Notes: generated from the letters alone by a model not told the origin. 64,000 bases of DNA from an uncultured Spirochaetaceae bacterium (GCA_964638895.1 CAZWYY010000013.1:2522-66521); one strand, 5' to 3'; counted from the first letter of the stretch, positions 43 to 26,477 are shown. A program made the numbers and translations.

Positions 43-1323
43 ATGCGGTCATGGAAAAGCATAAAAAGACTCATTCACACGGGAAAACATTTTTGCATAA
101 TTCCGTGGATTCACCTTCATATCACGGGTTTGGGGTATATGGGGTTATGCTGCGGAGAAAAAAAAGGGCCGTACGCCAGGGGTTACGGCAGTGTAAATAA
201 AAATACCTTCCGGGCCCTGTGGCAGGGGGAGGCAATCAGGGAACTGCGCTTGAAAATGTTGAATGATGAAGCGGACCCGCGCTGCCGGCTCTGTTACGAG
301 CAGGAAAACCTGGGGCAGACAAGTCTGCGTTTTTTACATAACCGTTCGTATGCTGAAAAATTTTTGGACTGGTTGTTGAATACGGATGAGTGGGGCTTCG
401 CCCCGGATGCCAAACCGGTGTATTGGGATATACGCTTTTCCAATTTATGTAATTTACGGTGCAGGTCATGCAGTTATACGGCAAGCTCCGCCTGGTTCGA
501 GGACGCCAAAGCCCTGGGACCGGTAAGAACACGGAAAACAGGCGCCGCTGTTATCCGCGTGCAGCATACGGCCAGGCTTTTAAAGGAGCTGGAACCATAT
601 TATTCCTCCCTGGAAAAGGTGATATTTGCCGGAGGTGAACCTCTGCTCATGGATGAAAATTACGATATCCTGGACAACCTGGAAAGGCTGCAAAAGTATG
701 AGACCGAGCTGCATTTCATTACGAATTTAACGACCCTGAATTACAAAGGCCGTGATATCTTAAAGATCTGGAATAAATTCAAAAACCTGTTTGTAACGGT
801 CAGCCTGGACGGCAGCGGGGACCGCTGCGAATACCTGCGTAAGGGTTTGAAGTGGAAAGCGGTATTAAAAAACCTGGAGTCCCTAAAGGAAAACTGCCCC
901 AATGCGCGGTTGAGTATTAATTGCACGGTCAGCGTTTTCAATATTCTGCATATAACGGATTTCCACCGGGAACTGGTGGAAAAAAATTTCATCTCCCCGG
1001 AAATGCTGCAACTATGCTTTCTTTATGAACCCTCATATTACAGCGTAAAAATCCTGCCGTCTGAGATGAAAAAACATGCCATTAAAAAAATAATCACCCA
1101 TATACACTGGTTAAAAACACGGGAGCCTTTTCATAATTTACAGGGATTTAATATGCACGCGGAGCGTTTTTTCCAGTGGGAAAACTGCATCAAATATATC
1201 AGGGAGGGCGACCGGACACATTTGATTCCCAAATTCATAGCCTTCACCGAAAAACTGGATGCGTTGCGGAATGAAAACTGCCTGGAAATTTTCCCGGAGC
1301 TTAAACCCCTGTACACCCTATGA
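43..1323 (+). CDS. Radical SAM enzyme, family A, with an N-terminal Cys-rich SPASM-like region (FCxxPW...GxxxxCC) before the CxxxCxxC core
   Basis: CNLRCRSC cluster with GGEPL downstream; N-terminal FCIIPWIHLHITGLGYMGLCC and CRLC; about 55 percent identical to ORF 3717-5003. Confidence 0.7.
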   Translation: MRSWKSIKRLIHTGKHFCIIPWIHLHITGLGYMGLCCGEKKGPYARGYGSVNKNTFRALWQGEAIRELRLKMLNDEADPRCRLCYEQENLGQTSLRFLHNRSYAEKFLDWLLNTDEWGFAPDAKPVYWDIRFSNLCNLRCRSCSYTASSAWFEDAKALGPVRTRKTGAAVIRVQHTARLLKELEPYYSSLEKVIFAGGEPLLMDENYDILDNLERLQKYETELHFITNLTTLNYKGRDILKIWNKFKNLFVTVSLDGSGDRCEYLRKGLKWKAVLKNLESLKENCPNARLSINCTVSVFNILHITDFHRELVEKNFISPEMLQLCFLYEPSYYSVKILPSEMKKHAIKKIITHIHWLKTREPFHNLQGFNMHAERFFQWENCIKYIREGDRTHLIPKFIAFTEKLDALRNENCLEIFPELKPLYTL

Positions 1324-2330
1324 TGTCTGATATGATTTTTCTGGATCACAGAGCTGAAGAACACAAAAAGAATTTTTTACTCGACTGGTACCTGGAAAAT
1401 CCTTATAACCTGAAAATGAAGGCCGGGAGCTCCTCCGGTTCCCCGACCGAACCCGATGTGGGCAGATATCTGGATGTAAGGGTTATCAGTGAATTTTGTG
1501 ATCGGGTTCTGTGTCATTACGCGGATAAACTCCGGCGTAAAGTGATTTTTGAGTTCAGCGGCGGCGAGCTGACCCCCGTACGTTATCTTCTGCAGATTCT
1601 GGGTTATCTGAAAAACCGTGCATGCAAGAGGTCTCTTGTGGTTAATCATGCCAGAAAGCAGCCATACTGGAAAAAACTCATTGATGAGGTGGATTTCGTT
1701 ACCCTTACCTACCCGTCGGGATATAATCAACCGGAAGCGTACATCGCGCTGATGGAGTACCTTCAGAATCATACGATACTGAGGGCGGCGATAGTAATGC
1801 AGAAAGAACGCTTTGCGGAGTGCCGGGACCTGGCGCAGACCATTATGCGTTCTTTTCAGAATGTTATGCTCAGCATTTTACCACCTGAAGAGGAAAAATA
1901 CCTGACGTACTCCGGGGAAAAGCGTGAACGGCTTTCGGCCCTGCTTGATCTCTGCCGCGCTCACAATGAAAAAAACGGGCTGACAAACAAGTGGTATCGT
2001 GGGGAAATGACCGCTTACACTACCGACGGCGGGACGGGTCATCTGACCCCTGAACAAATTTTGGCCCATCGGCAAAACAACTGGAAATCATGGATGTGCT
2101 GGTCCGGTCTGCATAAAATGGTCGTAGCGCCAGACGGAGACGTTTACCGGGCATGGTGCTTTAATGAACGGTTGGGCAATGTAGGCGGTGACGTCACTTT
2201 TCCGACGGTACCTATCAGCTGTCCGCTGAAACGCTGCGCCGATATAAGGGACATCGCCTTAAAAAGACAAAGCCTTGTGTTATTTAATCCGGGGAATATC
2301 CGGGAACTCGCCGAAATCGGAATTTTCTGA
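1320..2330 (+). CDS. Pseudo-radical-SAM protein (family B paralog lacking the CxxxCxxC triad)
   Basis: Colinear with 2333-3358 (KVIFEFSGGELT vs KILFEFTGGEVT; C-terminal WMCWSGL...RAWCFNERLGN vs WLCWTGL...RAWCMQEQLGN) but no Cys triad; ATGA overlap with upstream gene. Confidence 0.55.
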   Translation: MMSDMIFLDHRAEEHKKNFLLDWYLENPYNLKMKAGSSSGSPTEPDVGRYLDVRVISEFCDRVLCHYADKLRRKVIFEFSGGELTPVRYLLQILGYLKNRACKRSLVVNHARKQPYWKKLIDEVDFVTLTYPSGYNQPEAYIALMEYLQNHTILRAAIVMQKERFAECRDLAQTIMRSFQNVMLSILPPEEEKYLTYSGEKRERLSALLDLCRAHNEKNGLTNKWYRGEMTAYTTDGGTGHLTPEQILAHRQNNWKSWMCWSGLHKMVVAPDGDVYRAWCFNERLGNVGGDVTFPTVPISCPLKRCADIRDIALKRQSLVLFNPGNIRELAEIGIF

Positions 2331-2332
2331 AC

Positions 2333-3358
2333 ATGGAAATGCGAAAACCTTTATATAAAGATAAGACCGTTTTTATTGATCATGAACTGGACAAACATAA
2401 GGATGTGTTTGTGGTCAACTGGAACCTGGGCAACCGTTGTAATTATCGCTGCAGCTATTGCAATGAGACGCTGAACAGCGGGTCGGTCCCCTGGCTGGAC
2501 GCGGAGGCCGTGTTATGCTTCGCCGACAAGGTTATAGCGCATTACTCGGGGAAATTGCATAAAAAAATCCTGTTCGAGTTTACGGGCGGTGAGGTTACCC
2601 TCTATAAGGATTTATACAAGGTATTGAAATATTTAAAAGAAAACGGGTGTAAAACGGAAATCTTATCGAACGCCAGTCCCCGGCTGGCGTTCTGGGAGAA
2701 AATAAAAGACGTGCTGGATTACGCGATTCTCAGTTACCACGCGGAACACTGCGCCCCCGAGCATTTTTATGAGGTAGTGAAATCCGTAAACCGCAATATC
2801 AATGTGCACGTCAACATCATGATGAACAGGAATCGTTTTAACCTCTGCCGGGACCTCGGGGTATCGATTATGGACCTGGGCTCCGGTATTTCCTTAAGGT
2901 TCCAGCCCTTGTTGGAAAAATTGGCCGTAAACGCAAAACTGATCGGATACACCGAAGAGCAGCTGGCGTCCATAGGAATACTGAATGATCGGTGCAGCAC
3001 GGATTTTACCGGCCAAAACAGGTACCGCGGGCGCATGATCCATTACACCAGCGGGGGCGGTGAGTTCATCATGGATCCCCTGCAGTATGTAACGGAAAAG
3101 AAGAATCACTGGAGAGGCTGGTTATGCTGGACCGGATTGGAACAGATCGTTGTTTCACAATGGGGCGAGGTTTTTCGTGCCTGGTGTATGCAGGAACAGC
3201 TAGGGAATATCAGCGGACATATTGAGTTTCCGACAAAGCCGGTGGTCTGTACGAAAAAGACCTGCCATTGCAATATCGACATGCTGTGCAAAAAGCAGCT
3301 GCCGGTTTACCTGGATCCGGCAAACCTGAACCGGCTTAAAAAAATCGGCCTTGTGTAA
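2333..3358 (+). CDS. Radical SAM enzyme, family B, with a C-terminal Cys-containing twitch/SPASM-like region
   Basis: CNYRCSYC, FEFTGGEV, C-terminal CTKKTCHC; paralog of 21303-22325. Confidence 0.7.
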   Translation: MEMRKPLYKDKTVFIDHELDKHKDVFVVNWNLGNRCNYRCSYCNETLNSGSVPWLDAEAVLCFADKVIAHYSGKLHKKILFEFTGGEVTLYKDLYKVLKYLKENGCKTEILSNASPRLAFWEKIKDVLDYAILSYHAEHCAPEHFYEVVKSVNRNINVHVNIMMNRNRFNLCRDLGVSIMDLGSGISLRFQPLLEKLAVNAKLIGYTEEQLASIGILNDRCSTDFTGQNRYRGRMIHYTSGGGEFIMDPLQYVTEKKNHWRGWLCWTGLEQIVVSQWGEVFRAWCMQEQLGNISGHIEFPTKPVVCTKKTCHCNIDMLCKKQLPVYLDPANLNRLKKIGLV

Positions 3359-3422
3359 ATTCACCGTCAACCGCGAAGTGTTGATGTAACCTAATATCAA
3401 ACTTTTAAAGGAGAGAACAGCA

Positions 3423-3695
3423 ATGAGTAATAACGGAGACGTAAAGGCAAAGATAAAAGAGCTTTTGGCCGAAGTGACGGGTGACACCGCATTGTCGGGA
3501 AATCTAACGGACTCCTCCGATCTTATCAATGAGATCGGTCTGGACTCGATCCAGATGATCAATTTTATCCTTATGGTCGAGGATGAATTCGGGATCGAGA
3601 TTGATTTTGAGAACTTCGATTACACCAATTTCGAACGCTTTGACTCTTTCTGTCAATTTGTCTCGGAAACCGTGAAGTACCAGACGGTTTCATAA
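3423..3695 (+). CDS. Stand-alone acyl/peptidyl carrier protein (ACP-like)
   Basis: 90 aa, acidic, GLDSIQ phosphopantetheine-attachment-type motif; RBS AAAGGAGAGAA upstream. Confidence 0.65.
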   Translation: MSNNGDVKAKIKELLAEVTGDTALSGNLTDSSDLINEIGLDSIQMINFILMVEDEFGIEIDFENFDYTNFERFDSFCQFVSETVKYQTVS

Positions 3696-3716
3696 GCTTG
3701 CAATAAAGGGATTCTC

Positions 3717-5003
3717 TTGATGAGAACAAAACGCGACATTCAGCGGCTGTTAAAAAAGGGCAAACATTTTTGTCTGGCGCCGTGGGTGCACCTACATGTG
3801 ACGGGCTTGGGGATCATGGGGTTATGCGCCATGTCGGAGCAGGGTCCCTTTGATACGGGGTACGGCAGCCTGAATACCAATTCATTCCCCGAATTATGGC
3901 AGGGTGAGGCTATCAGGGAGTTCCGTTTGAAGATGCTGGAGGATCAGCCGGATTCCCGCTGCGTCAACTGTTATAAAAGTCGGCTGGGATATACCACGTT
4001 GCGGAATGAGATCAATTCCTATTATTGGGGACATCTTGACTGGGTGGCGCATACGGACGCCTCGGGATACGCCCCGCGGGCGAAACCCATATTCTGGGAT
4101 ATTCGTTTTTCCAACATATGCAATTTAAAGTGCCGTTCCTGTATTGATGTATCCAGCACCGGATGGTATGAGGATGCCAAGGCCATGGGATTTTTAAATG
4201 CACGCCATAACGGGGAACCCATCCAAGGCGTAAAAGACCCTGCCCGGTTGTTGCAGGATCTTGAGCCGTACCTGCCCCACCTGGAAGGCATACGTTTCGC
4301 GGGGGGGGAGCCTTTATTAATGGAAGAGAATTATTATCTCATGCAGAAACTTGACGCCCAGCGCAAATACAACATTCGCATTGAATACGAAACGAATATG
4401 ACGAAGCTGTATTACAAAAAAGACCTTTTATTATCTCTATGGAAAAAATTCAAAAATATCCTGGTATCCGTCAGCCTGGACGGATTAGAGGAGAGGTGCG
4501 AATACCTGCGTAAGGGGCTGAAATGGGAGAAGGTACTGGGGTATATAAATGACATTAAAGCACACTGCCCGGGGATCGGCCTGCGGATTAATTACACGGT
4601 GAGCGCCTATAATATCCTGCACGCCGCGGAGTTTCACCGCACCATGGTGGAAAAAAAGTATATCGGGCCTGAACAGATTCAACTCATCTTCCTTGTTGAA
4701 CCCAATTACCTGAGTATGAAAATACTCCCCCCGGCAATGAAAAAAGCCGCAACCAACAAGCTGATGAATCACATACGCTGGCTGCACAGGGAGTATCCAT
4801 TCCGTTCCACCTGCGGATTCAGGAACTGCGGCGGGCTTTTCATTCAATGGCTTACCTGTATTAAAAAACTGAATGAAGAGGATTGGTCGCACCTGATACC
4901 GCAATTTATCGATTACACCAACAAACTGGATACGCTGCGCAGGGAAAACTGCCTCTCAGTTTTCCCTGAAGTAAACGGGCTTTTCCGGTTGCGGGTCGGA
5001 TGA
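3717..5003 (+). CDS. Radical SAM enzyme, family A (paralog of 43-1323)
   Basis: CNLKCRSC, GGEPL, N-terminal FCLAPWVHLHVTGLGIMGLC; likely ATG at 3720. Confidence 0.7.
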   Translation: MMRTKRDIQRLLKKGKHFCLAPWVHLHVTGLGIMGLCAMSEQGPFDTGYGSLNTNSFPELWQGEAIREFRLKMLEDQPDSRCVNCYKSRLGYTTLRNEINSYYWGHLDWVAHTDASGYAPRAKPIFWDIRFSNICNLKCRSCIDVSSTGWYEDAKAMGFLNARHNGEPIQGVKDPARLLQDLEPYLPHLEGIRFAGGEPLLMEENYYLMQKLDAQRKYNIRIEYETNMTKLYYKKDLLLSLWKKFKNILVSVSLDGLEERCEYLRKGLKWEKVLGYINDIKAHCPGIGLRINYTVSAYNILHAAEFHRTMVEKKYIGPEQIQLIFLVEPNYLSMKILPPAMKKAATNKLMNHIRWLHREYPFRSTCGFRNCGGLFIQWLTCIKKLNEEDWSHLIPQFIDYTNKLDTLRRENCLSVFPEVNGLFRLRVG

Positions 5004-5006
5004 ATC

Positions 5007-6734
5007 ATGGAGCTTGTTAAAAGGAAATTAAAGCAAGGCATCACTTTTTTTATGCCCGTCACGGCCGCCCCCCTGATAAATGAGATCTGGGAAAAGGAGG
5101 TGTACAACCGGGCATACTCGCTGAAGGAAAACGATATTGTGCTTGATGTGGGCGCGAATATCGGTGTTTTTTCACTCTACGCCGCTTCCAGGGGGGCGAA
5201 GGTCTTCAGTTTTGAACCCAACCCCGAAGTCTTTGCTGTTTTACAAGAGAACATCAGGATCAATAACCTGGAAAACAGGGTCACACCTTTGAATATGGCC
5301 CTGGGCGATCATAAAGGTAAAGCGACCTTATTCATGGCGCTTTCGGAAAAGATATACGCGCCGGGTTCGGCTTCCATTATGAGGGATTTTATTGATGATC
5401 TGGATAAAAGGTACGGCAAGAATGATTATACCGCCTTCACGGTTTCCTGCCTGCGGTTGGATCAGGCATTGGATTTACTGCGCCTTAAGATGGTTGATTT
5501 TATGAAGGTGGACTGCGAGGGAGCGGAGTACGACATCATGCAAAGCGTTCCGCAGCACAGGCTGGGAGAAATCCGCCGTATCGCCATGGAGATCCATATC
5601 GCCTGTTACTCCCAAAAAGAGTTGTGCCGGATTTTGCGGCAAAAGGGATACGTAGTCAACGAGTTCGAAAAAGCGGATGAATCCTCCCTGACCGGTTTTT
5701 TGTACTGTACCCATTCCGCAATGGGGATAACCGCACCCGGCAAACCGGTCGCGGTTTTGTCGGTCAGGCAGGGGCAAGACATAGATAAAGATTATGTTTT
5801 TTGTAATCAAAGCGTTATTTTTGACGGCAGCCGGAGTTTTATCACAAACGGCGGAGAGCGGAAACCCGTTTTTAAATGGAGCATAGATGAAATTAATGCC
5901 CGCAGCCAAGCTGAAAAATGGAGTTACAGGTTTACGGAACCGGGTTATCACCGGGTGACGCTCTGCCTGCGCCATGACCGTAAATCGGATTCGGCCGAAA
6001 AAGAACTCATGGTTTTACAGGCTGATTATTTTCGGGGCGGCGTTGATCATTACCTTTCACCGCTTAGGGAAGATACGGGAAGGAGTGATGCGAAATGTGT
6101 GACCTTTCATGACGGAGTCAAATTCTCAATCCGGAGTGATCACCTGCCGGCAACCAGGTTCGGACAGCTCTTGATCGAACTTGAAATTAAAAGTTTCCCC
6201 GGTGAACCGCTCTCCGGATTACAGGAGCAGCTGCTCTTATTTGAAATGAACGGCCGGAAGATCGTCCTCGGTGAGCCGAACGAAAAAATACTTATGGATA
6301 CAATTCTTTACGGCATCGACGCCGTTTTTACCCTCACTCCTTATATTTACCGGGGTCAAAGGGAGATCAGCATCAAATGGGGAATACCGGACACGATTTC
6401 CAACATACAAGAGGGAAACAAACCGGACACGGCTCCGCCGGCCGGGGAGACCGGTTTGTATCTTTTCCGGGGCGAGAAGCTTTTTACCATCGGCGTGGAT
6501 ATGTTTCCCCCGGACTGGACCCCGCGGGAAATTGTTATCGATATCAAGCCTTCACAGTACCGGGGCAAAAAAACCGCTTTGTCCGGCTTTCTGTGTTACG
6601 GAAAGCGGGTTACGGCATTATCCGGCTGGAAAGATGGGGCGCGCATAAAAAAGGGCGAGTGGGAGGATGATTTCTCATTCTCGATCAACCTGCCCACGGA
6701 GAATTGTCTCAGGCTGACATGGTGGCCCGAATGA
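5007..6734 (+). CDS. FkbM-family SAM-dependent methyltransferase fused to a ~330-aa C-terminal domain of unknown function
   Basis: LDVGANIGVFSLYAA, FEPNPEVF; C-terminal domain ends TWWPE as in paralog 23308-25038. Confidence 0.65.
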   Translation: MELVKRKLKQGITFFMPVTAAPLINEIWEKEVYNRAYSLKENDIVLDVGANIGVFSLYAASRGAKVFSFEPNPEVFAVLQENIRINNLENRVTPLNMALGDHKGKATLFMALSEKIYAPGSASIMRDFIDDLDKRYGKNDYTAFTVSCLRLDQALDLLRLKMVDFMKVDCEGAEYDIMQSVPQHRLGEIRRIAMEIHIACYSQKELCRILRQKGYVVNEFEKADESSLTGFLYCTHSAMGITAPGKPVAVLSVRQGQDIDKDYVFCNQSVIFDGSRSFITNGGERKPVFKWSIDEINARSQAEKWSYRFTEPGYHRVTLCLRHDRKSDSAEKELMVLQADYFRGGVDHYLSPLREDTGRSDAKCVTFHDGVKFSIRSDHLPATRFGQLLIELEIKSFPGEPLSGLQEQLLLFEMNGRKIVLGEPNEKILMDTILYGIDAVFTLTPYIYRGQREISIKWGIPDTISNIQEGNKPDTAPPAGETGLYLFRGEKLFTIGVDMFPPDWTPREIVIDIKPSQYRGKKTALSGFLCYGKRVTALSGWKDGARIKKGEWEDDFSFSINLPTENCLRLTWWPE

Positions 6735-6752
6735 ATGGGAGGGAAATGAGCA

Positions 6753-8087
6753 TTGGCCGGTAAATTAGTATTAGGCACGTTCAACGCGGAAAAATATTGG
6801 CGGGAAGACGGATTGGCCTGTCTGCCCGAGTTGTATGACGCGGGCGCGGCAAAGATCGTGCGCGCCATGGACGAGCTGTTGTTTCCCCTTTGTGAAAGGG
6901 GTGATGTGTTACTTACCCGTTTTAAGATGGACCCTGCCTTTAAAGACTACCTTAACAGGCTGGGTTTTCAATTTGTGTCAAACAATTTTAACCTGGAGGA
7001 AATCACTGCGGCGGCCGCGGGGCCGGGCGGGGGCTGTATTGAGGAACTGCTGAACCGCAAACGCCGTGACCCGCGACTCTTGGAGTTTCTGGGACCGGTT
7101 AGCTCCTTACACCCGTACGCCGTGCTCCCCGGTACGACGGAGACCGTAAAAAACTTCGGCTGGGAGGAGTGCCACCCGCCTTACGAGGCCGTGAAAAAGG
7201 TAAATTCCAAGGAATATTCCAATGAACTGAACGAGCGGATCGGTGTAAAAAAGTACGGAAAAATAATTCACAGTACGGACGAATATCATGAGACGGCCGC
7301 CCGGATAGGCAACGGAAGGGGGTTCATCATCAAGGACCTGTACGGCGTATCCGGTAAGGGGAACCTGCTTGTCGCCGGGCCCTCACTGCAGAAAAGGATC
7401 GGAAAGCACCTTGCCGCGCAGGAAGAGAAGGGTCTGGCCGTCCGCTTTCTGATGGAACCGTATTTTGACAAGGTGTATGACTTTTCCTGCCAGCTTTACA
7501 TCGGCAGGACGGGGGATTCCCGCATAGTTTCGATACAGGAGATCAAGAATTATCTCTTTACCTACATCGGTTCCCTGAGCGCCGGAGATGATTTTATCTG
7601 TTTTCTTAAGGACCGGGGATACTTCGAACTAATGCAAAAGGTTGCGGAAGAACTTTACGGCGACGGATACTGCGGCGATGTCTGTATAGACTCCATGATC
7701 CTCAAGAACGATGAGCTGGTTCCGGTGGTTGAGATCAACGCGCGTAAATCCATGGGACTGATAAATTATTACATCGACCGCTTCCTGGCTGGATATTCCG
7801 CGCGCGGATATTTTGTTTTTTTTACCGCTGTTTGTGAAGGTCGGACCGGTTTTCACGACATCCTGGAAAAGCTGGAACATGAAGGCATCCTCTTCACCGC
7901 CGCGCGCGGTCGCGGCGTACTGCCGTTGTCGGCCAATGCCCTGTTCGTGAACCAGGACGAGGAGAAGAGTTACAAAGGAAGATTTTATTTTTCCGCGGCC
8001 GCGGGCACCCAGCATGAAAGGCAGGGGCTGGTGGACCGGACCGTCAATGCCTTTACCTCGATGGGATTCCGTGTTTATTACCGCTAA
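6753..8087 (+). CDS. ATP-grasp domain ligase (TTG start)
   Basis: GFIIKDLYGVSGKGNLLV glycine-rich loop, VVEINARKSMG C-terminal motif; RBS GGAGGG upstream of TTG. Confidence 0.5.
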   Translation: MAGKLVLGTFNAEKYWREDGLACLPELYDAGAAKIVRAMDELLFPLCERGDVLLTRFKMDPAFKDYLNRLGFQFVSNNFNLEEITAAAAGPGGGCIEELLNRKRRDPRLLEFLGPVSSLHPYAVLPGTTETVKNFGWEECHPPYEAVKKVNSKEYSNELNERIGVKKYGKIIHSTDEYHETAARIGNGRGFIIKDLYGVSGKGNLLVAGPSLQKRIGKHLAAQEEKGLAVRFLMEPYFDKVYDFSCQLYIGRTGDSRIVSIQEIKNYLFTYIGSLSAGDDFICFLKDRGYFELMQKVAEELYGDGYCGDVCIDSMILKNDELVPVVEINARKSMGLINYYIDRFLAGYSARGYFVFFTAVCEGRTGFHDILEKLEHEGILFTAARGRGVLPLSANALFVNQDEEKSYKGRFYFSAAAGTQHERQGLVDRTVNAFTSMGFRVYYR

Positions 8088-8098
8088 AGGAGACATAA

Positions 8099-9243
8099 TG
8101 AAAGAAGACAAGGTTACTATTTTGGCCTCGGGCGTGGCCTTGGGAGTATATATCCCGGCCCTGCTTGTCAATTATCAGCTGCGGCGGCGCGGTGTGGCGG
8201 CTGAGGTTGTTGTTCTGGAAAATCTTTTGCTGCCTGAAAAAAAGGCGAAGATACCCGCCAACAAGCAGGCCTTTCACAGGAGTTTCCGTGTCGCCCTAGC
8301 CGGACAAAAAATGGCTGTCGACCTTTGGCCTCATTATGATAAGAAGGCGCTGGCCGGGTTATTCGACGCTTGGCAGGGGGAGGGGAGGAGGAACTTTATT
8401 GTTTTTTCCGGGTTCTGGATGTCCGTGCTCCGTGAATATATCAACACGGTTCCCGGAAACGGAATGAACGTGGAGATTGTGCACATGGACGCGGATATAT
8501 CCGCCTCGTGGCGGCTTTTCAGGCGGGAGACTACGGGGTTTAATAATGTCTGGCTGTTTGACGGGCGGAATAAGAAGGTGGACTATGAACTCAGGATCGC
8601 GCAGCATCCCCCCGTGCCGTACCGAAGCAGGCCGGACCGTTACGTAATTCACGGTGGCGGTTGGGGAATGGGGAACTACCGGGAAAAAATCGCGGAATTG
8701 GAAGAAGGCGGACTGAAGCTTGATATCGTTGCCTATGAAGCGGAGGAAACCGAGAACCTTAAAGCGGGCCACAGGAGTTTCATGATTGATCCGTGCTGGT
8801 CACCCTGGATAAAGAATAATAACGATGAACACGAGTTTCCGCCCTTCGGTCAAATAACCGGCGGCCGGGCCCCTGTATTTAAAAACAAACAGGAGTATCA
8901 CGATCTTTTTGACGTGATCCGCCTGAGCAGGGCGATTATCAGCAAGCCCGGCGGCGCTACCCTGGCGGATTCCCTGGCTTCAGCCACGCCCCTGGTTATA
9001 CTGGAGTCTTTCGGGAATTATGAGCAACAAAACGCTGAACTATGGGAGCACCTTGGTTTCGGTATCCGGTATGATGATTGGAAAACGGCAGGTTTCTCAG
9101 GGGGTATTCTGGAAAAATTTCATTATAACCTTTTATCTGCCGCGGGTTTGGCCGTGGACTATGTCAGTGATTATATAGACAGGAATTGCGGCCGCGCGCC
9201 CGGGGTCTTGGGACCGGGAAGGTCGCTTCACGGCGTAAATTAA
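8099..9243 (+). CDS. GT-B glycosyltransferase, MurG/MGDG-synthase (GT28)-like
   Basis: VIHGGGWGMGNY and KPGGATLADSLASATPLV motifs; RBS AAGGAGACA; start moved from ORF-track 8014 to ATG 8099. Confidence 0.5.
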
Positions 9244-9269
9244 CCGCCGTCTTTGTAAGGAGGATTATT

Positions 9270-10442
9270 TTGCAGCCAAAAACAGCGGTCAGGTTTGACC
9301 GGAAATCGTTCGAACGTATTAAGCGGACCATACGCAATATGTCGGTGGGCAGGAGCTCCATCAGGCAGGATCCCGGGTTTGCCATGAGGCTTCCCGATGA
9401 AATCGGCATCCAGTTGACCAACAAATGCAATCTGCGCTGCCGCCATTGTTTTCAATGGAATGAGGAGGGTTTTTTCAACAGCTTTGACAAGGGAACACAG
9501 AAAGACGAGCTTGATTTCCCGCTGATAGAAAAAATTCTGGCTCAAACGGCGGGCGTCAAATCCAACCTGTATTTATGGGGCGGTGAACCGCTTTGTTACA
9601 CCCACTGGGATGAGCTTTCGTATGCCCTGGAAAAGGATCCGCGTTGGACGGTCTTCTGTACGAACGGCATCGATGTTGAGAAGAAACTCGAGTCCCTGCT
9701 GCGGGTGTCCTCATCACTCGCCATGCTTGTCAGCGTTGAGGGGTTCGAGGAAGAGCACGACGCGGTCAGGGGCCGGGGTACGTATAAGAAGGTGATGGAA
9801 AGTATCGATCTGTTATTGAAGCTGAAAAGACAAAACAAGTTCAAGGGAGAGGTGTCCGTCAACTGTGTGATAAACGAGAGTATGATCGGGAAGCTGTATC
9901 AGTTCGCCCGGATGTTCGAGGAAAATGGCATCAACACCCTGTATTTCTGTTTTCCGTGGTACATCCCCCGCTCGTCCGCGCTGCATATGGATGCGTTCTT
10001 TAAAAAGAACTTCGGCTGGCTGCGCACATTGGACAATGACCATGCCGCGAGTTGGCATTCCTATACATACCATCTTTCCCCCGACGTGACGCGCGCGCTG
10101 ACGGCCGATTTGGGCCGGGTAAGCGAAAAGGTTTGGAAAATAAGAATGCGTTACCAGCCCGCGCTTAAGCCCGGAGAGATTGAAGGTTTTATCAGGGGTG
10201 AGGAAACCACAGCCCAGAAAAGAAGCAAATGTATCGGTCTTACCAACCGCATGAATGTCATGCCGTCGGGAAAGGTCACCGTCTGTAAGCTATTCCCGGA
10301 ATTTGAAATAGGCGACCTTACGGGTTCGGGCGTTGAAGAGGTATGGAACAATGAGACCTTCAGGCGGGTGCGTGAAATCTTAAATCGGGGACTGACCCCG
10401 GTCTGTTCAAAATGCATTCTCCTTTATCTGCACGGGGTGTAG
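9270..10442 (+). CDS. Radical SAM/SPASM-domain enzyme (AtsB/PqqE-like architecture)
   Basis: LTNKCNLRCRHC, GGEPL, C-terminal CIGL...VCKLFPEFEIGDL...CSKC; TTG 9270 with AAGGAGG at 9257-9263. Confidence 0.7.
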   Translation: MQPKTAVRFDRKSFERIKRTIRNMSVGRSSIRQDPGFAMRLPDEIGIQLTNKCNLRCRHCFQWNEEGFFNSFDKGTQKDELDFPLIEKILAQTAGVKSNLYLWGGEPLCYTHWDELSYALEKDPRWTVFCTNGIDVEKKLESLLRVSSSLAMLVSVEGFEEEHDAVRGRGTYKKVMESIDLLLKLKRQNKFKGEVSVNCVINESMIGKLYQFARMFEENGINTLYFCFPWYIPRSSALHMDAFFKKNFGWLRTLDNDHAASWHSYTYHLSPDVTRALTADLGRVSEKVWKIRMRYQPALKPGEIEGFIRGEETTAQKRSKCIGLTNRMNVMPSGKVTVCKLFPEFEIGDLTGSGVEEVWNNETFRRVREILNRGLTPVCSKCILLYLHGV

Positions 10443-10451
10443 CGGATTACA

Positions 10452-11528
10452 ATGAAGACCTACAGCTTTGTTATTCCCACGTATAATAAAAAAGCACTCC
10501 TAAAGAACACGCTTGAAGCGCTGAACTACCAGCCGGGCTACGGCTACTATGAAGCGGTTGTGGTGGACGACGGCTCGGACGACGGCACCCGTGATTATAT
10601 CAAGGAAACGGCCAGGAATTACGAGCTGAAGTATCTCTACCTGGAAAGGGATATGAATTCGTGCCGGGCCAGAACAAGGAACCACGGATGGAAGAACGCC
10701 GGGGGCGAGGTGATTGTCTTCATCGATTCGGATATAATCATCAAGCCGGATTACCTGGCGGAGCTTGAGCGCTGCTTTGGGCTTGATGATGATATCGCGG
10801 TTATCGGCAACAGGCTGATGCTGCCGGAACCGTCGACATATAAAGAGGTGACCGGCCTGGAGATCTACCGGAAATACGGCTTCGGCGGGCATAAGGATCT
10901 GCGGGAGTTCCGGTACCTTTTATACGGAGATACCTCCTACAATATCAACGCCCATGCCTACCCCTGGACGCAGTTTTACAGTTGTAATGCGGCGCTGCCG
11001 AAGAAATGCCTGGAACAAACCGGCGGCTTTGATGAAAATTTCAAGGGCTGGGGCGTGGAGGACATTGAGCTTGGTTATGAGCTGTATAAAAGGAACATTC
11101 CTATTGTCATAAACCATAAACTGGAAGTGTTTCATCAGTATCACGGTCCGAGGAACGACCTGTCCATTAAGCCTGAGCTTGTTCCCGACTATGAAAGGAA
11201 TATCGCTTACTTTCTAAAGAAACATCCGCAGTCGCTACACATGCCCGACAAGTATAAGTATGATTTTTTAAAAGGCGAGTTAAAGGACGATTCGTTTTTT
11301 AGCGAAAACGGCAAGCGGTATATCGGCGTGGATTTCAGAGACCGGTCTCAATTGGGTAATCTGAAGAACCTGCTGCTCAAGTCGATATCCAGGGATAAAA
11401 CCGTCATAGTGGTTAATGACTACCTTGAAAATACGGACCTTGATATCTGGATTCAGCTTCCCAAAAAGCAGGGGCAGATCACGGCCCGCTATTTCCCAAT
11501 GTCAAAAAAGGCGGAACGGCACGGATGA
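10452..11528 (+). CDS. Family 2 glycosyltransferase with a conserved C-terminal extension
   Basis: FVIPTYNK, VVDDGSDDGT, FIDSDI; paralog of 14112-15290 including the tail VNDYLENTDLDIWI...YFPMSKK. Confidence 0.7.
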   Translation: MKTYSFVIPTYNKKALLKNTLEALNYQPGYGYYEAVVVDDGSDDGTRDYIKETARNYELKYLYLERDMNSCRARTRNHGWKNAGGEVIVFIDSDIIIKPDYLAELERCFGLDDDIAVIGNRLMLPEPSTYKEVTGLEIYRKYGFGGHKDLREFRYLLYGDTSYNINAHAYPWTQFYSCNAALPKKCLEQTGGFDENFKGWGVEDIELGYELYKRNIPIVINHKLEVFHQYHGPRNDLSIKPELVPDYERNIAYFLKKHPQSLHMPDKYKYDFLKGELKDDSFFSENGKRYIGVDFRDRSQLGNLKNLLLKSISRDKTVIVVNDYLENTDLDIWIQLPKKQGQITARYFPMSKKAERHG

Positions 11529-12328
11529 GAGTCTTTATCACGGTTATAAAACTCTACCTCAAGGTGATGATCCAATACCGCACAACCTTCATGCTTTCGC
11601 TCATCGGGGAGCCTGTGCTGTATCTGATCAATATCATTTATTTTTCCGCCATCTATGCCTACAATGGCAAGGACACGGTTTTGGGTTATAGCCTGACCCA
11701 GATGATATGGTATTTTGCCGGTATATCACTTGTCTGGCAGTGTATCTGGAACTCCACCGACAATAATATCTCTCAAAAGATTCTATCCGGCGACCTGGCG
11801 GTAGACCTGTTGAAGCCGTTTTCCACGTTAAAACTGGAACTGGCCTATGCCCTGTCGGCGAGAATCCTGGCCGTTATGCTGGAGTTTGTACCGGTTCTGG
11901 CCATATACATGCTGCTTTTTTTCCCCGGGTTTATCACCATTTTTGTGGTAATCAAATTTTTGATCGTCATGCCCCTGTCTTTTCTTATGTTTTTTCTGTT
12001 GAACTACCTGATCGGGCTGACGGCATTTTTTATTAAAAACAATACCTCCCTGCAGACCGTCAAGTACGTGCTTATTACCCTGACGGCCGGCGGGTTCATT
12101 CCCCTGGATTTTTTTCCGCAATGGGTGCAGCGCGTAACCGGAGTGCTGCCGTTTCAATACCTTTTTTACTGGCCAATTCAGATCCTTTTAAACCGGGAAA
12201 CGACAAAGGGGTGGGAAAATTTTACGCGAATCGTTTCCTGGCAGTTGTTATGGATAGCGGGCTTTTATCTTTTATCCAGGATTTTCTGGAAACGGGCAAT
12301 AAGAAAATATTGCGCCGTGGGGGGATAG
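11525..12328 (+). CDS. ABC-2 type transporter permease
   Basis: About six hydrophobic segments; C-terminal KRAIRKYCAVGG similar to the next permease; 4-nt overlap with upstream gene. Confidence 0.55.
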   Translation: MRVFITVIKLYLKVMIQYRTTFMLSLIGEPVLYLINIIYFSAIYAYNGKDTVLGYSLTQMIWYFAGISLVWQCIWNSTDNNISQKILSGDLAVDLLKPFSTLKLELAYALSARILAVMLEFVPVLAIYMLLFFPGFITIFVVIKFLIVMPLSFLMFFLLNYLIGLTAFFIKNNTSLQTVKYVLITLTAGGFIPLDFFPQWVQRVTGVLPFQYLFYWPIQILLNRETTKGWENFTRIVSWQLLWIAGFYLLSRIFWKRAIRKYCAVGG

Positions 12329-12377
12329 CGTAATATTAATCCTCAACCTGTTCAGATTTTTCTTACTCAACAGCAGA

Positions 12378-13124
12378 TTGAAACTGTTACGGGGAATGCA
12401 GTACAAGACCGACTTCTTCATGGGCATATTTCTGTCCATGAGCTTTTCCAGTCTGGGTCCCCTTTTCCAGTACCTTATCTTCAGCCAGACAAGGGGATAC
12501 CCGCGCTGGAACCTGAAGCAGATCATCCTATTCCAAGGTGTGGTACTCTTATGGCTGGGTATAAAAGACCTGCTTTTCGGAGAAATACGCGGTTACGTGG
12601 AGAGTATGGTAAAAGGAGGGAATTTCGACAGGCTGCTGCTTAAGCCGTATCCCCCTCTGGGCGTTATCCTGACCAGCGGCTTCTATTACCATGCCTTTGG
12701 CACGATTATCGCGGGAGCGGTAATCATTGCCGTTTCCCTTCAGCAGTTGGGACTGGTCTTAAGCTGGTGGCAACCGCTGCTTTTCGTGGGTTTCTTTGCC
12801 TGCGGCATTTTGCTGCATATGACCATAACCATATTGTACTGTATCATGATTATCAGGCTTACCCACATGGGACGGCTGGGAGAAATCATCGACAAACTGC
12901 TCCAGTTCTCCCAATATCCCCTGGATATCCTTTCCCCGGTTCTCCGCATGGCCCTGATGGTGTTTCTGCCGATCGCCATCTGGATCTATTTCCCCACGGA
13001 GATCCTGCTTGACAGGCTTGAGGTGAACGCTTTCATGGGAGTGGCGGTGGCTCTTGCACTCTTCTTTGCCAGTCTTTTTTTATGGAAGAGAAGCCTTAAG
13101 AGATATACCAGTGCGGGAGGGTAG
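12378..13124 (+). CDS. ABC-2 type transporter permease (second subunit)
   Basis: Polytopic hydrophobic protein; C-terminal KRSLKRYTSAGG. Confidence 0.55.
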   Translation: MKLLRGMQYKTDFFMGIFLSMSFSSLGPLFQYLIFSQTRGYPRWNLKQIILFQGVVLLWLGIKDLLFGEIRGYVESMVKGGNFDRLLLKPYPPLGVILTSGFYYHAFGTIIAGAVIIAVSLQQLGLVLSWWQPLLFVGFFACGILLHMTITILYCIMIIRLTHMGRLGEIIDKLLQFSQYPLDILSPVLRMALMVFLPIAIWIYFPTEILLDRLEVNAFMGVAVALALFFASLFLWKRSLKRYTSAGG

Positions 13125-13127
13125 GTT

Positions 13128-14111
13128 ATGAGTGATAACATTATCAAAATAAAAAACTTAAAGAAGGTCTTCAAGGTGCGGGTAAAAAGTAAAGAAGGCA
13201 TGTGGGCTTCGGTAAGGCTGCTGTTTAAAGGAGAGTACAAGCTGGTGACCGCGGTTGACGGATTGAGCATGAATGTGAAAAGGGGCGAGATAAAGGGGCT
13301 GATCGGTCCGAACGGTGCCGGAAAGTCCACCACCATCAAAATAATTTCTGGTATTCTTTTTCCCAGTGAGGGTACCGTGGATGTGCTGGGGTTTACGCCG
13401 TGGCTGCAGAGGAGGGAGTACGTCAGGCACATCGGCGTACTCTTCGGTCAAAAAACGCAGTTGTTTTGGGATTTACCCCCTATGGACACCTTTTTACTGC
13501 ACAGGGAAATGTATAAAATACCCGAAAAGCGCTTTCGGAAAAACGTGGCGTATTTTAAACAGGTGCTGCAGCTGGAAGAGGTGGTAAAAAGGCCCGTACG
13601 GAATCTCTCCCTGGGAGAGAGGATGAAGTGCGAGCTGGTGTGCGCCATGCTGCATGAGCCGGAGCTTGTCTACCTGGACGAGCCGACCATCGGGCTTGAC
13701 CTGTTTGCCAAAGAGTCCATCAGGAATTACATCAAGCGGATTAAGAAAGAGAAAAACACCACCTTTATCCTGACCACCCATGATCTGAATGAAATTGAAA
13801 ATATCTGTGAAAACGTCAGTATCATCAATAAGGGCAAAATCGTATATAACGGGGCGCTGGAGAATCTCAGCTCCTTTTTTACAAAACGGAAGATTATCGA
13901 GGTGAAGTTTACGCGGAAAACGGACACGACGGCGCTGGGTAATTTCAAGATTGTTTCCTCCAACCCCTTTTCCGTAAAGATCGAGGTGGACCTGACAAAA
14001 AACAAGATTCAGGACGTCGTGTACGGTATTTTTAACGTACTGCCGGTACAGGACATCAATATACAGGATGTCGGTATCGAGGATATCATAAAACAGATTT
14101 ATACACGGTAA
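13128..14111 (+). CDS. ABC transporter ATP-binding protein with a ~90-aa C-terminal extension
   Basis: GPNGAGKSTT Walker A, LSLGERMKCEL signature, LVYLDEPTIGLD Walker B. Confidence 0.8.
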   Translation: MSDNIIKIKNLKKVFKVRVKSKEGMWASVRLLFKGEYKLVTAVDGLSMNVKRGEIKGLIGPNGAGKSTTIKIISGILFPSEGTVDVLGFTPWLQRREYVRHIGVLFGQKTQLFWDLPPMDTFLLHREMYKIPEKRFRKNVAYFKQVLQLEEVVKRPVRNLSLGERMKCELVCAMLHEPELVYLDEPTIGLDLFAKESIRNYIKRIKKEKNTTFILTTHDLNEIENICENVSIINKGKIVYNGALENLSSFFTKRKIIEVKFTRKTDTTALGNFKIVSSNPFSVKIEVDLTKNKIQDVVYGIFNVLPVQDINIQDVGIEDIIKQIYTR

Positions 14112-18831: not shown

Positions 18832-18857
18832 AAAAACAGCACCAGGGGGGTGATACA

Positions 18858-23292: not shown

Positions 23293-23307
23293 AGGGAGGG
23301 TTTTCTG

Positions 23308-25038: not shown

Positions 25039-25062
25039 CATGGATGATGATGGGAATATTAC

Positions 25063-26457: not shown

Positions 26458-26477
26458 AAAACCGGCGGATCCTCGCA

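What the first reader, a model, noticed from the sequence alone, without database searches (positions are those of the whole stretch)
43..5003. Radical SAM family with a Cys-rich SPASM-like motif at the N-terminus instead of the C-terminus
Paralogs 43-1323 and 3717-5003 begin with K-HFC(I/L)(I/A)PW(I/V)HLH(I/V)TGLG(Y/I)MGLC and a later C(R/V)(L/N)CY pair, i.e. a CxxPW...GxxxxC...CxxC pattern reminiscent of auxiliary Fe-S (SPASM/twitch) domains. These precede the canonical CNL(R/K)CRSC site by about 110 residues. ORF 17662-18831 has a related N-terminus (CLQPF...RCC...CDWHQCPFYC). I do not recognise this permuted arrangement as a standard family.
Basis: seen in the sequence. Interest (0 to 1): 0.65.

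Follow-up and report, generated by a model that had tools for sequence, protein, structure and literature searches.

The report
N-terminal twitch radical SAM enzymes
Three genes in this window encode radical SAM enzymes whose extra iron-sulfur-binding "twitch" domain comes before the catalytic core instead of after it; the feature is real, but the family is large and already catalogued (NCBIfam NF033640), and its reaction is still unknown.

Summary
ORFs 43-1323 and 3717-5003 are 54%-identical paralogs. Each has a Cys-rich N-terminal domain (C-x17-C-x44-C-x2-C) about 50 residues upstream of the canonical CX3CX2C site.

The Fe-S interpretation is supported:
- Pfam SPASM matches the N-terminal domain above its cutoff.
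- A profile of that domain hits only one solved protein, BtrN, in its C-terminal twitch domain (E=1e-7). The four Cys align one-to-one with the only four Cys of that BtrN segment.
- The AlphaFold2 model (pLDDT 95.5) shows the hairpin-plus-helix twitch topology.

With four conserved Cys and no CX2CX5CX3C block, this is a one-cluster twitch domain, not a two-cluster SPASM domain.

The claim that this is not a standard family is wrong. Both proteins match NCBIfam NF033640 (N_Twi_rSAM) end to end at 366 and 335 bits (cutoff 170). The family has at least 5,748 50%-identity clusters.

ORF 17662-18831 belongs to a sister family with the same layout (C-x17-C-x40-C-x4-C).

I found no solved structure or characterised reaction for these families. 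The genes sit in a conserved cluster with ten radical-SAM-type genes, an ACP, glycosyltransferases and an exporter, so a tailoring role for a glycosylated metabolite or surface glycan is likely. Interest is moderate to low.

The parts
43..1323 (+). N-twitch radical SAM protein A (426 aa), a member of NCBIfam NF033640
   Evidence: NF033640 366.2 bits over aa 15-424 against profile positions 2-398 of 398, cutoff 170. Pfam SPASM followed by Radical_SAM. AF2 pLDDT 95.5, pTM 0.92.
85..312 (+). N-terminal twitch domain of protein A (aa 15-90); proposed auxiliary [4Fe-4S] ligands C18, C36, C81, C84; C37 is conserved in 89% of homologs
   Evidence: Pfam SPASM aa 18-85. Profile hit to the BtrN twitch domain with Cys-for-Cys alignment. 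Cys conservation. DSSP shows H20-23, E24-27, E32-34, H56-60, H63-73, H79-89.
448..471 (+). Radical SAM cluster motif C136-x3-C140-x2-C143 of protein A
   Evidence: Invariant in 61 homologs. Pfam Radical_SAM aa 131-294. The G197-G198-E199-P200 motif is also invariant.
1060..1320 (+). C-terminal all-helical domain of protein A (about aa 340-426), with no conserved Cys; it occupies the sequence position where SPASM/twitch domains normally lie
   Evidence: DSSP helices 340-358, 366-371, 373-387, 392-408, 413-416 and 418-425. Conserved W356, D406, R409. Only C382 (57%) and C413 (28%) occur there.
3717..5003 (+). N-twitch radical SAM protein B (428 aa), a 54%-identical paralog of A and a member of NF033640
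   Evidence: NF033640 334.9 bits. Pfam SPASM aa 19-86 followed by Radical_SAM aa 130-285.
3762..3989 (+). N-terminal twitch domain of protein B (aa 16-91); C19, C37, C82, C85
4119..4142 (+). Radical SAM motif C135-x3-C139-x2-C142 of protein B
17662..18831 (+). Sister-family radical SAM protein (389 aa) with an N-terminal twitch-like domain; it scores below the NF033640 cutoff
   Evidence: Pfam SPASM aa 24-88 at 22.5 bits, Radical_SAM at 29.3 bits against a cutoff of 29.5. NF033640 64 bits, below 170. hhalign against the N-domain profile gives 90% probability. AF2 pLDDT 93.2 with the same N-domain topology.
17725..17937 (+). N-terminal twitch-like domain of the sister-family protein (aa 22-92); invariant C24, C42, C83, C88 (C-x17-C-x40-C-x4-C)
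   Evidence: 46 homologs.
18109..18132 (+). Radical SAM motif C150-x3-C154-x2-C157 of the sister-family protein
   Evidence: Invariant.
1320..2330 (+). Context: pseudo-radical-SAM paralog (336 aa) that lacks the CX3CX2C motif
   Evidence: 33% identical over its full length to ORF 2333-3358, but with NPYNLKMKAG in place of NRCNYRCSYC. No Pfam or NCBIfam hit.
2333..3358 (+). Context: radical SAM protein (341 aa), distantly STM4011-like
3423..3695 (+). Context: acyl/peptidyl carrier protein (90 aa) immediately upstream of protein B
   Evidence: Pfam PP-binding E=6.9e-11. The carrier protein is also present in related clusters L009, L083 and L085.
5007..27722 (+). Context: remainder of the co-directional cluster. 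It holds two FkbM methyltransferases, an ATP-grasp-like protein, a GT-B-like protein, one classical radical SAM/SPASM protein, two GT2 glycosyltransferases, an ABC-2 exporter, two further radical SAM proteins, two B12-type radical SAM proteins (a B12-binding domain is detected in only one), a DegT aminotransferase and an OYE flavoenzyme.

Best explanation
ORFs 43-1323 and 3717-5003 are two-cluster radical SAM enzymes of the catalogued family NF033640 (N_Twi_rSAM).

Catalytic core: a canonical partial-barrel core binds the SAM-cleaving [4Fe-4S] cluster at CX3CX2C (C136/C140/C143 in ORF1).

Auxiliary domain: about 75 N-terminal residues form a twitch domain homologous to the C-terminal twitch domain of BtrN. 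It most likely binds one fully Cys-ligated auxiliary [4Fe-4S] cluster (C18, C36, C81, C84). The domain order is therefore permuted relative to every structurally characterised SPASM/twitch enzyme that turned up in the structure searches. The sequence position after the barrel is taken by a Cys-poor helical domain. ORF 17662-18831 is a sister-family enzyme with the same layout.

Inferred mechanism: the 5'-deoxyadenosyl radical abstracts a substrate hydrogen. The coordinatively saturated auxiliary cluster then acts as an electron conduit or acceptor, as proposed for BtrN, rather than as a substrate-binding site as in MoaA.

Inferred substrate: gene context points to a small-molecule, sugar, nucleotide-sugar or carrier-protein-bound intermediate of a glycosylated, exported product, not a ribosomal peptide. 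The exact reaction is unknown.

What is shown: family membership, domain homology, Cys conservation and predicted fold. What is inferred: metal content, the cluster's role, and the substrate.
For: Family membership and size:
- NF033640 matches end to end at 366 and 335 bits against a cutoff of 170.
- Homologs carry the NCBI name 'twitch domain-containing radical SAM protein'.
- 5,748 representative clusters match at E<=1e-30.

Auxiliary domain:
- Pfam SPASM matches the N-terminal domain over the full model.
- The N-domain HMM hits only BtrN (4m7s/4m7t, aa 165-244) in the PDB at E=1e-7. The four conserved Cys fall on C169, C187, C232 and C235, the only Cys in that segment.
- The BtrN auxiliary cluster is Cys4-ligated and proposed to act in electron transfer.
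- hhalign links the N-domain to the C-terminal SPASM domain of the classical enzyme at 9186-10442 (76% probability).
- Cys conservation is shown.

Fold:
- The AF2 model has pLDDT 95.5 and pTM 0.92, with hairpin-plus-helix N-domain topology.

Context:
- The syntenic clusters L009, L083 and L085 carry an ACP, a GT2, an ABC-2 exporter and many radical SAM genes.
- The cluster around P0022 (L002) carries GTs, an ACP, a ketosynthase and an epimerase.
- P0016 lies between PKS and NRPS genes.
- Recurrent neighbours family-wide are GT4, NAD-epimerase, UbiA and PhyH proteins.
- One homolog of ORF 17662 is fused to an NAD-dependent sugar epimerase/dehydratase domain.
- The core of ORF 17662 resembles SkfB, viperin, BlsE and DesII.
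Against: - Neither the spatial clustering of the four Cys nor their distance from the SAM cluster was measured.
- More distant family members stand alone among unrelated genes, so the family is probably not isofunctional and context-based substrate inference may not transfer.
- The cluster also contains RiPP-like elements: a radical SAM/SPASM protein and a B12 radical SAM protein with a sub-threshold match to RiPP C-methyltransferases.
- The extra conserved C37 (89%) and C285 (87%) are unexplained.
Confidence: 0.8

Rival explanations
1. The N-terminal cysteines form a structural zinc site (zinc ribbon or treble clef) rather than an Fe-S cluster.
For: Four conserved Cys including a CxxC pair could in principle bind Zn. 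No metal analysis is available.
Against: - The spacing C-x17-C-x44-C-x2-C is not a zinc-ribbon pattern.
- The domain matches Pfam SPASM over the full model.
- It matches only BtrN's [4Fe-4S]-binding twitch domain in the PDB, with all four Cys aligned.
- No zinc-finger family appears in the Pfam or NCBIfam scans.
Confidence: 0.04
2. The domain is a full SPASM domain that binds two auxiliary clusters.
For: The best Pfam match is named SPASM. A fifth Cys (C37) is conserved in 89% of members, and C285 in 87%. ORF 17662 has extra Cys at C41 and C92.
Against: - Only four N-domain Cys are invariant, and there is no CX2CX5CX3C block after the CxxC pair.
- C92 is not among the conserved columns in the sister family.
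- The PF13186 model matched here spans only the stretch from C18 through the C81-x2-C84 pair, which is the part shared with twitch domains.
- NCBI's curated name for the family is twitch.
Confidence: 0.04
3. The auxiliary site is not an electron conduit. It holds a [2Fe-2S] cluster, or a cluster that binds substrate directly (SkfB- or MoaA-like).
For: Twitch domains are functionally heterogeneous. MoaA's cluster has an open Fe that binds GTP. SkfB and MoaA are among the top structural neighbours.
Against: Four, not three, Cys are conserved. They align with the Cys4-ligated BtrN site, not with the 3-Cys MoaA site.
Confidence: 0.1
4. The enzymes are RiPP (peptide) maturases and the cluster makes a modified peptide.
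For: - Many SPASM/twitch enzymes are peptide maturases.
- The cluster contains a classical radical SAM/SPASM protein and a B12 radical SAM protein with a sub-threshold hit to RiPP C-methyltransferase TIGR03975 (158 bits against 282).
- A C39-like peptidase lies at 45158-46237.
Against: - No N-terminal extension is left for a peptide-recognition (RRE-type) domain: the twitch domain begins at about residue 15.
- No sizeable intergenic gap was seen between the listed ORFs of the first 27 kb; short ORFs were not searched.
- The cluster is rich in sugar genes: DegT aminotransferase, two GT2, two FkbM, an ABC-2 exporter.
- The C39-like gene is 18 kb away on the other strand.
- The closest cores include small-molecule enzymes: BlsE, viperin, DesII, MoaA.
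Confidence: 0.1
5. The N-terminal position is an annotation artefact: the Cys-rich segment is really the C-terminus of an upstream radical SAM gene, split by a frameshift or misassembly.
For: Tandem radical SAM genes are common here, and fused double units exist.
Against: - The upstream genes are an unrelated 211-aa protein and an ACP, each ending in a stop codon and followed by a ribosome-binding site.
- All 61 homologs share the same N-terminal start.
- The curated full-length HMM matches from profile position 2.
- AF2 packs the domain confidently (pTM 0.92).
Confidence: 0.01

Closest known systems
NCBIfam NF033640 (N_Twi_rSAM), 'twitch domain-containing radical SAM protein'
   Same: ORF1 and ORF5 match the whole model at about twice the curated cutoff. 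They share its architecture (twitch, then radical SAM, then helical tail) and its conserved Cys.
   Different: The two proteins are divergent members: at most 57% identity to anything else in a 5.8-billion-protein collection. The family has no assigned reaction. ORF 17662-18831 falls below the cutoff (64 bits) and represents a sister family that NCBI names only 'radical SAM protein'.
BtrN (butirosin 2-deoxy-scyllo-inosamine dehydrogenase; PDB 4M7S/4M7T), the prototype twitch enzyme
   Same: The twitch domain is homologous (E=1e-7), with identical Cys spacing C-x17-C-x44-C-x2-C. BtrN's auxiliary [4Fe-4S] cluster is Cys4-ligated. The substrate is a small molecule or sugar.
   Different: In BtrN the twitch domain follows the core (aa 165-244 of about 250). 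Here it precedes the core, and a roughly 90-residue helical domain follows it. BtrN does not appear in the whole-protein PDB sequence hits or in the listed top structural matches. No 2-deoxystreptamine pathway genes were seen in the cluster.
SPASM-domain radical SAM enzymes (anSME, CteB, SuiB, PqqE; Pfam PF13186 / TIGR04085)
   Different: SPASM domains are C-terminal, carry 7-8 Cys and bind two clusters. Here the domain is N-terminal, carries 4 conserved Cys, and is inferred to bind one cluster.
BlsE, DesII and viperin (nucleoside or nucleotide-sugar modifying radical SAM enzymes)
   Different: Only about 200-250 residues align (TM-score on the query at most 0.44). None has an N-terminal Fe-S domain. 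From my own knowledge, not tested here: DesII and viperin lack an auxiliary cluster.

Membership tests
NCBIfam NF033640 (N_Twi_rSAM) | Whole-protein HMM score at or above the curated cutoff (170 bits), with end-to-end coverage | tested here: met
   ORF1 scores 366.2 bits (aa 15-424 against profile positions 2-398 of 398). ORF5 scores 334.9 bits. ORF 17662 scores 64.1 bits, so the feature is not met for that ORF.
NCBIfam NF033640 (N_Twi_rSAM) | Twitch-type Cys-rich domain N-terminal to the radical SAM core | tested here: met
   Pfam SPASM at aa 18-85 precedes Radical_SAM at aa 131-294. The same order holds in the listed homologs that have both Pfam hits on record.
Radical SAM superfamily (PF04055) | CX3CX2C cluster motif and GGE SAM-binding motif in a partial TIM barrel | tested here: met
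Twitch domain (as defined on BtrN and MoaA) | Homology to a known twitch domain, with the cluster-ligating Cys conserved | tested here: met
   The N-domain HMM hits BtrN aa 165-244 at E=1e-7. The four Cys align with C169/C187/C232/C235.
Twitch domain (as defined on BtrN and MoaA) | Beta-hairpin followed by a helix, with Cys before and after the hairpin and after the helix | tested here: met
   DSSP of the AF2 model: C18, E24-27/E32-34, C36, H56-73, then C81/C84 at the start of H79-89. ORF 17662 shows the same pattern.
Twitch domain (as defined on BtrN and MoaA) | Located C-terminal to the radical SAM core | tested here: not met
   The domain occupies aa 15-90, before the core. Reviews describe SPASM/twitch domains as C-terminal extensions. 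This is the permutation.
Twitch domain (as defined on BtrN and MoaA) | Binds exactly one auxiliary Fe-S cluster about 16 A from the SAM cluster | not testable with these tools
   No coordinates are returned for the model and no metal analysis is possible. The feature is inferred from four conserved Cys and the BtrN homology.
SPASM domain (TIGR04085 / PF13186 in the strict sense) | Seven or eight conserved Cys, including CX2CX5CX3C, binding two auxiliary clusters | tested here: not met
   Only C18, C36, C81 and C84 are invariant, plus C37 at 89%. There are no Cys between C84 and C136.
BtrN-type DOIA dehydrogenase | Full-length orthology and a 2-deoxystreptamine pathway context | tested here: not met
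   Only the twitch domain matches BtrN. The whole-protein PDB sequence search does not return BtrN. No DOI-synthase-type gene appeared in the Pfam scans of the cluster.
RiPP radical SAM/SPASM maturases | Score above the cutoff of a maturase model, plus an adjacent precursor peptide or peptide-recognition element | tested here: not met
   All maturase models score 16-28 bits against cutoffs of 300-650. No recognition-domain hit was found. No gap for a precursor gene was seen between the listed ORFs.

The most novel reading that the evidence does not exclude
The N-twitch enzymes are parts of a previously undescribed, radical-chemistry-dominated biosynthetic cluster type. The window version has ten radical-SAM-type genes in 27 kb: three with N-terminal twitch domains and one pseudo-radical-SAM/radical-SAM pair, alongside an ACP, an ATP-grasp-like protein, glycosyltransferases, FkbM methyltransferases and an ABC-2 exporter. 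The type recurs in metagenome contigs and MAGs whose named relatives are Bacillota; two of the related clusters have a MalT/BTAD regulator (L083, L085). In this reading the permuted twitch enzymes catalyse a reaction type not yet known for SPASM/twitch enzymes. The permutation may have arisen through the tandem fusions seen in the family, and it may place the auxiliary cluster in a geometry different from that of BtrN.
Probability: 0.3. Interest if true: 0.6.

Novelty: new member of a known kind. Interest (0 to 1): 0.3.

Why it matters
Reviews define SPASM and twitch domains as C-terminal extensions of the radical SAM core. Yet a family with at least 5,748 50%-identity clusters carries the twitch domain at the N-terminus.

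A structure would show whether sequence-permuted twitch domains put the auxiliary cluster in the same place as in BtrN. That bears on the open question of what auxiliary clusters do.

For this window specifically the result is mostly clarifying. The feature is real, but databases already recognise it. The more promising lead is the conserved multi-radical-SAM gene cluster around it, whose product is unknown.

Tried and rejected
- Single-sequence phmmer of the 121-aa N-domain against the PDB gave only chance GAPDH hits. A 30-sequence profile was needed to find BtrN.
- The AFDB fold library (afdb50) was not available.
- Model coordinates are not exposed.
- hhalign of the N-domain profile against the C-terminal Cys motif of ORF 2333-3358 gave nothing (1% probability). 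That C-terminal motif is therefore not demonstrably a twitch domain.
- Literature searches for 'N-terminal twitch', 'N-terminal SPASM', NF033640 or N_Twi_rSAM found no paper describing the architecture. The key twitch review (PMC4326806) is not held in the library.
- Rfam and tRNA scans of the window found nothing.
- I rejected the frameshift/fusion artefact, zinc ribbon and full-SPASM readings (see rival explanations).
- I did not identify the organism rigorously. The closest named relatives of ORF 17662 are Spirochaetia/Spirochaetales MAGs (79-81% identity). Those of ORF1 are Bacillota MAGs and Paenibacillus (47-52%).

Full report
**Observation**

ORFs 43-1323 (426 aa) and 3717-5003 (428 aa) are present on the + strand. 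They are full-length paralogs, 54% identical.

The quoted motifs are exact:
- ORF1 has KHFC18-IIPWIHLHITGLGYMGL-C36C37, then C81RLC84Y, then C136NLRC140RSC143.
- ORF5 has C19, C37, C82, C85 and C135, C139, C142.

The N-terminal position is not an annotation artefact. Each ORF is preceded by the stop codon of the upstream gene and by an AAAGGAA or AAAGGGA ribosome-binding site. The upstream genes are an unrelated 211-aa protein without Pfam hits and an ACP. Sixty-one homologs share the same N-terminus.

**What the N-terminal domain is**

Pfam SPASM (PF13186) matches aa 18-85 and 19-86 over the whole 67-position model, at 33.3 and 31.0 bits against a cutoff of 21.5. Radical_SAM (PF04055) follows at aa 131-294 and 130-285.

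In a 61-sequence alignment spanning 36-57% identity, C36, C81 and C84 and the radical SAM triad C136/C140/C143 are invariant. C18 is present in all 57 sequences that have a residue at that column. C37 is conserved in 89% and C285 in 87%.

A profile of the N-domain (aa 12-112, 30 sequences) searched against all PDB sequences returns a single protein, BtrN (4M7S/4M7T). The match falls in BtrN's C-terminal twitch domain (aa 165-244) at E=1e-7. The four conserved Cys fall on C169, C187, C232 and C235, which are the only Cys in that BtrN segment and have identical spacing, C-x17-C-x44-C-x2-C.

BtrN's auxiliary [4Fe-4S] cluster is Cys4-ligated. That these four residues are the ligands is my own recollection of Goldman et al. 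2013, and it is consistent with the numbering.

The same profile aligns with the C-terminal SPASM domain of the classical radical SAM/SPASM protein encoded at 9186-10442 (hhalign probability 76%).

No Cys lies between C84 and C136, and there is no CX2CX5CX3C block. The domain is therefore a one-cluster twitch domain, not a two-cluster SPASM domain.

**Structure**

AlphaFold2 with the 61-sequence alignment gives a confident model: pLDDT 95.5 and pTM 0.92, with the N-domain blocks at 89-98. The model has four parts:
- N-domain: C18, a beta-hairpin (E24-27, E32-34), C36, helices 56-73, then C81/C84 at the start of helix 79-89. This is the twitch topology.
- A helical linker.
- A beta/alpha core, aa 127-326.
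- A C-terminal helical domain of about 90 residues, without conserved Cys.

So the core belongs to the SPASM/twitch branch, and no solved structure shares the whole architecture. Model coordinates are not returned. The clustering of the four Cys and their distance to the SAM cluster therefore remain inferred.

**Is it a known family?**

Yes. NCBIfam NF033640, short name N_Twi_rSAM, 'twitch domain-containing radical SAM protein', matches ORF1 at 366.2 bits and ORF5 at 334.9 bits. The cutoff is 170 bits. Both matches run end to end.

Evidence that the family is large and widespread:
- Many homologs already carry that name in NCBI.
- At least 4,729 proteins match at E<=1e-5 in a word-indexed search.
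- 5,748 50%-identity clusters match at E<=1e-30 in an exhaustive profile search of 1.84 billion representatives.
- 331 confirmed loci occur in a one-genome-per-species collection, across Bacillota (Paenibacillus), Bacteroidota, Myxococcota, Bdellovibrionota, Elusimicrobiota, Verrucomicrobiota, Proteobacteria and Synechococcus.

On the other hand, reviews describe SPASM/twitch domains as C-terminal. None of my literature searches found a paper on an N-terminal twitch or SPASM arrangement, or on NF033640.

**The third ORF**

ORF 17662-18831 (389 aa) matches Pfam SPASM at aa 24-88 (22.5 bits) and nearly reaches the Radical_SAM cutoff (29.3 against 29.5). It scores only 64 bits on NF033640.

Its own family (153 proteins at E<=1e-5; up to 84% identity; named relatives include Spirochaetia MAGs and [Clostridium] polysaccharolyticum) has invariant C24, C42, C83, C88 (C-x17-C-x40-C-x4-C) and C150/C154/C157.

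hhalign links its N-terminus to the N_Twi N-domain profile (90% probability). Its AF2 model (pLDDT 93.2) shows the same hairpin-plus-helix N-domain. The core resembles SkfB, viperin, BlsE and DesII. It is a sister family with the same permuted layout and no dedicated NCBIfam model.

**Context and likely role**

The first 27.7 kb of the window is one co-directional cluster. Its genes, in order:
- N_Twi A.
- A pseudo-radical-SAM protein that lacks CX3CX2C. It is 33% identical to the next gene.
- A radical SAM protein.
- An ACP.
- N_Twi B.
- An FkbM methyltransferase.
- An ATP-grasp-like protein.
- A GT-B-like protein.
- A radical SAM/SPASM protein.
- A GT2 glycosyltransferase.
- Two ABC-2 permeases and an ATPase.
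- A second GT2.
- A radical SAM protein.
- A B12-type radical SAM protein (no B12-binding Pfam hit).
- The N-twitch sister protein.
- An unknown protein.
- A DegT sugar aminotransferase.
- A radical SAM protein.
- An OYE flavoenzyme.
- A second FkbM methyltransferase.
- A B12-binding radical SAM protein.
- An unknown protein.

The same cluster type recurs with 47-66% identical proteins in a Bacillota MAG (L009). It also recurs around two close homologs (L083, L085). In L085 and L083 a MalT/BTAD-type regulator is present.

Other contexts:
- One homolog sits between PKS and NRPS genes.
- Another sits among GTs, an ACP, a ketosynthase and an epimerase.
- Across 77 loci, 32 have two or more N_Twi paralogs within 8 kb. 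Recurrent neighbours are PhyH dioxygenases, GDSL-like proteins, UbiA, GT4 and NAD-epimerases.
- More distant members stand alone among unrelated genes.
- One homolog of ORF 17662 is fused to an NAD-dependent epimerase/dehydratase domain.

I therefore infer a tailoring role on a sugar, nucleotide-sugar or carrier-bound small molecule of an exported glycosylated product. The saturated auxiliary cluster would act as an electron relay, as proposed for BtrN. The reaction itself is unknown.

**Rivals**

- A zinc site is unlikely given the BtrN and SPASM homology and the Cys spacing.
- A two-cluster SPASM domain is excluded by the Cys count.
- A substrate-binding or [2Fe-2S] site cannot be excluded without spectroscopy.
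- A RiPP role is disfavoured. There is no room for an N-terminal recognition domain, no gap for a precursor gene was seen, and the context is sugar-rich.

**Verdict**

The Fe-S interpretation is supported and sharpened to a twitch domain. The novelty claim is not supported, because the family is catalogued and very large. The window's proteins are divergent new members, at most 57% identical to any other sequence.

Residual interest lies in two points. This abundant, permuted family has no structure and no known chemistry. The conserved multi-radical-SAM cluster around it has no known product.

Noticed in passing
window 1320-2330 and 2333-3358 (+): These are adjacent paralogs, 33% identical over their full length. 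The second is a radical SAM protein (CNYRCSYC at aa 36-43). The first has NPYNLKMKAG at that position and matches no Pfam or NCBIfam model, so it is a pseudo-radical-SAM partner. Both keep a C-terminal motif CW(S/T)GL...RAWC...C-x4-C. The same pair (about 336-345 aa without a Pfam hit, plus about 334 aa of radical SAM protein) recurs in L083 (14901-16946) and L085 (307-2361).
   Followed up: partly
window 43-27722 (+); L009, L083, L085: A conserved multi-radical-SAM cluster type. It contains an ACP, an ATP-grasp-like protein of about 449 aa, a GT-B-like protein, methyltransferases, radical SAM/SPASM proteins, N-twitch radical SAM proteins, a GT2, two ABC2_membrane_6 permeases and an ATPase. 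Two of the related clusters also have a MalT/BTAD regulator. The window version has ten radical-SAM-type genes. The product is unknown and I did not find it described.
   Followed up: partly
L084 (contig LEMO22-1 scaffold_48), gene 10001-11269: A 49%-identical N_Twi homolog (P0016) lies between a 1,835-aa PKS and multi-module NRPS genes. Some family members therefore tailor PKS/NRPS products.
   Followed up: no
P0075 (630 aa, truncated), and about 800-1100-aa hits P0245-P0250: Tandem fusions of two complete N_Twi units exist (twitch, radical SAM, helical domain, twitch, radical SAM). In these proteins a twitch domain does follow a radical SAM core in sequence. This is the kind of intermediate expected under a duplication-and-fusion route to domain permutation.
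   Followed up: partly
L042-L076 (Elusimicrobia MAG MJ-2014_bin-0981): This single MAG carries N_Twi paralogs on at least 15 contigs, with up to six copies within 17 kb (L052). That is a striking lineage-specific expansion.
   Followed up: no
P0161 (676 aa), homolog of window 17662-18831: The N-twitch sister-family radical SAM protein is fused to an NAD-dependent epimerase/dehydratase (UDP-glucose 4-epimerase-like) domain. This fusion hints at a nucleotide-sugar substrate.
   Followed up: no
P0091, P0073, P0081, P0112 and similar proteins (about 540-570 aa): A large subgroup of N_Twi proteins carries an extra N-terminal extension of about 150 residues with no Pfam match, ahead of the twitch domain.
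   Followed up: no
window 29331-32987 (-): A 1,218-aa hybrid sensor lies just downstream of the cluster on the opposite strand. It combines a periplasmic sugar-binding domain, a histidine kinase, a receiver and a GGDEF domain.
   Followed up: no
window 1-64000: GC content shifts from 44-52% in the radical SAM cluster (1-28 kb) to 55-62% in the housekeeping region (about 34-40 kb and 46-60 kb; Lhr helicase, branched-chain amino-acid ABC transporter). ORF 17662's closest relatives are Spirochaetia, whereas ORF1's are Bacillota. This may indicate horizontal acquisition of the cluster.
   Followed up: no
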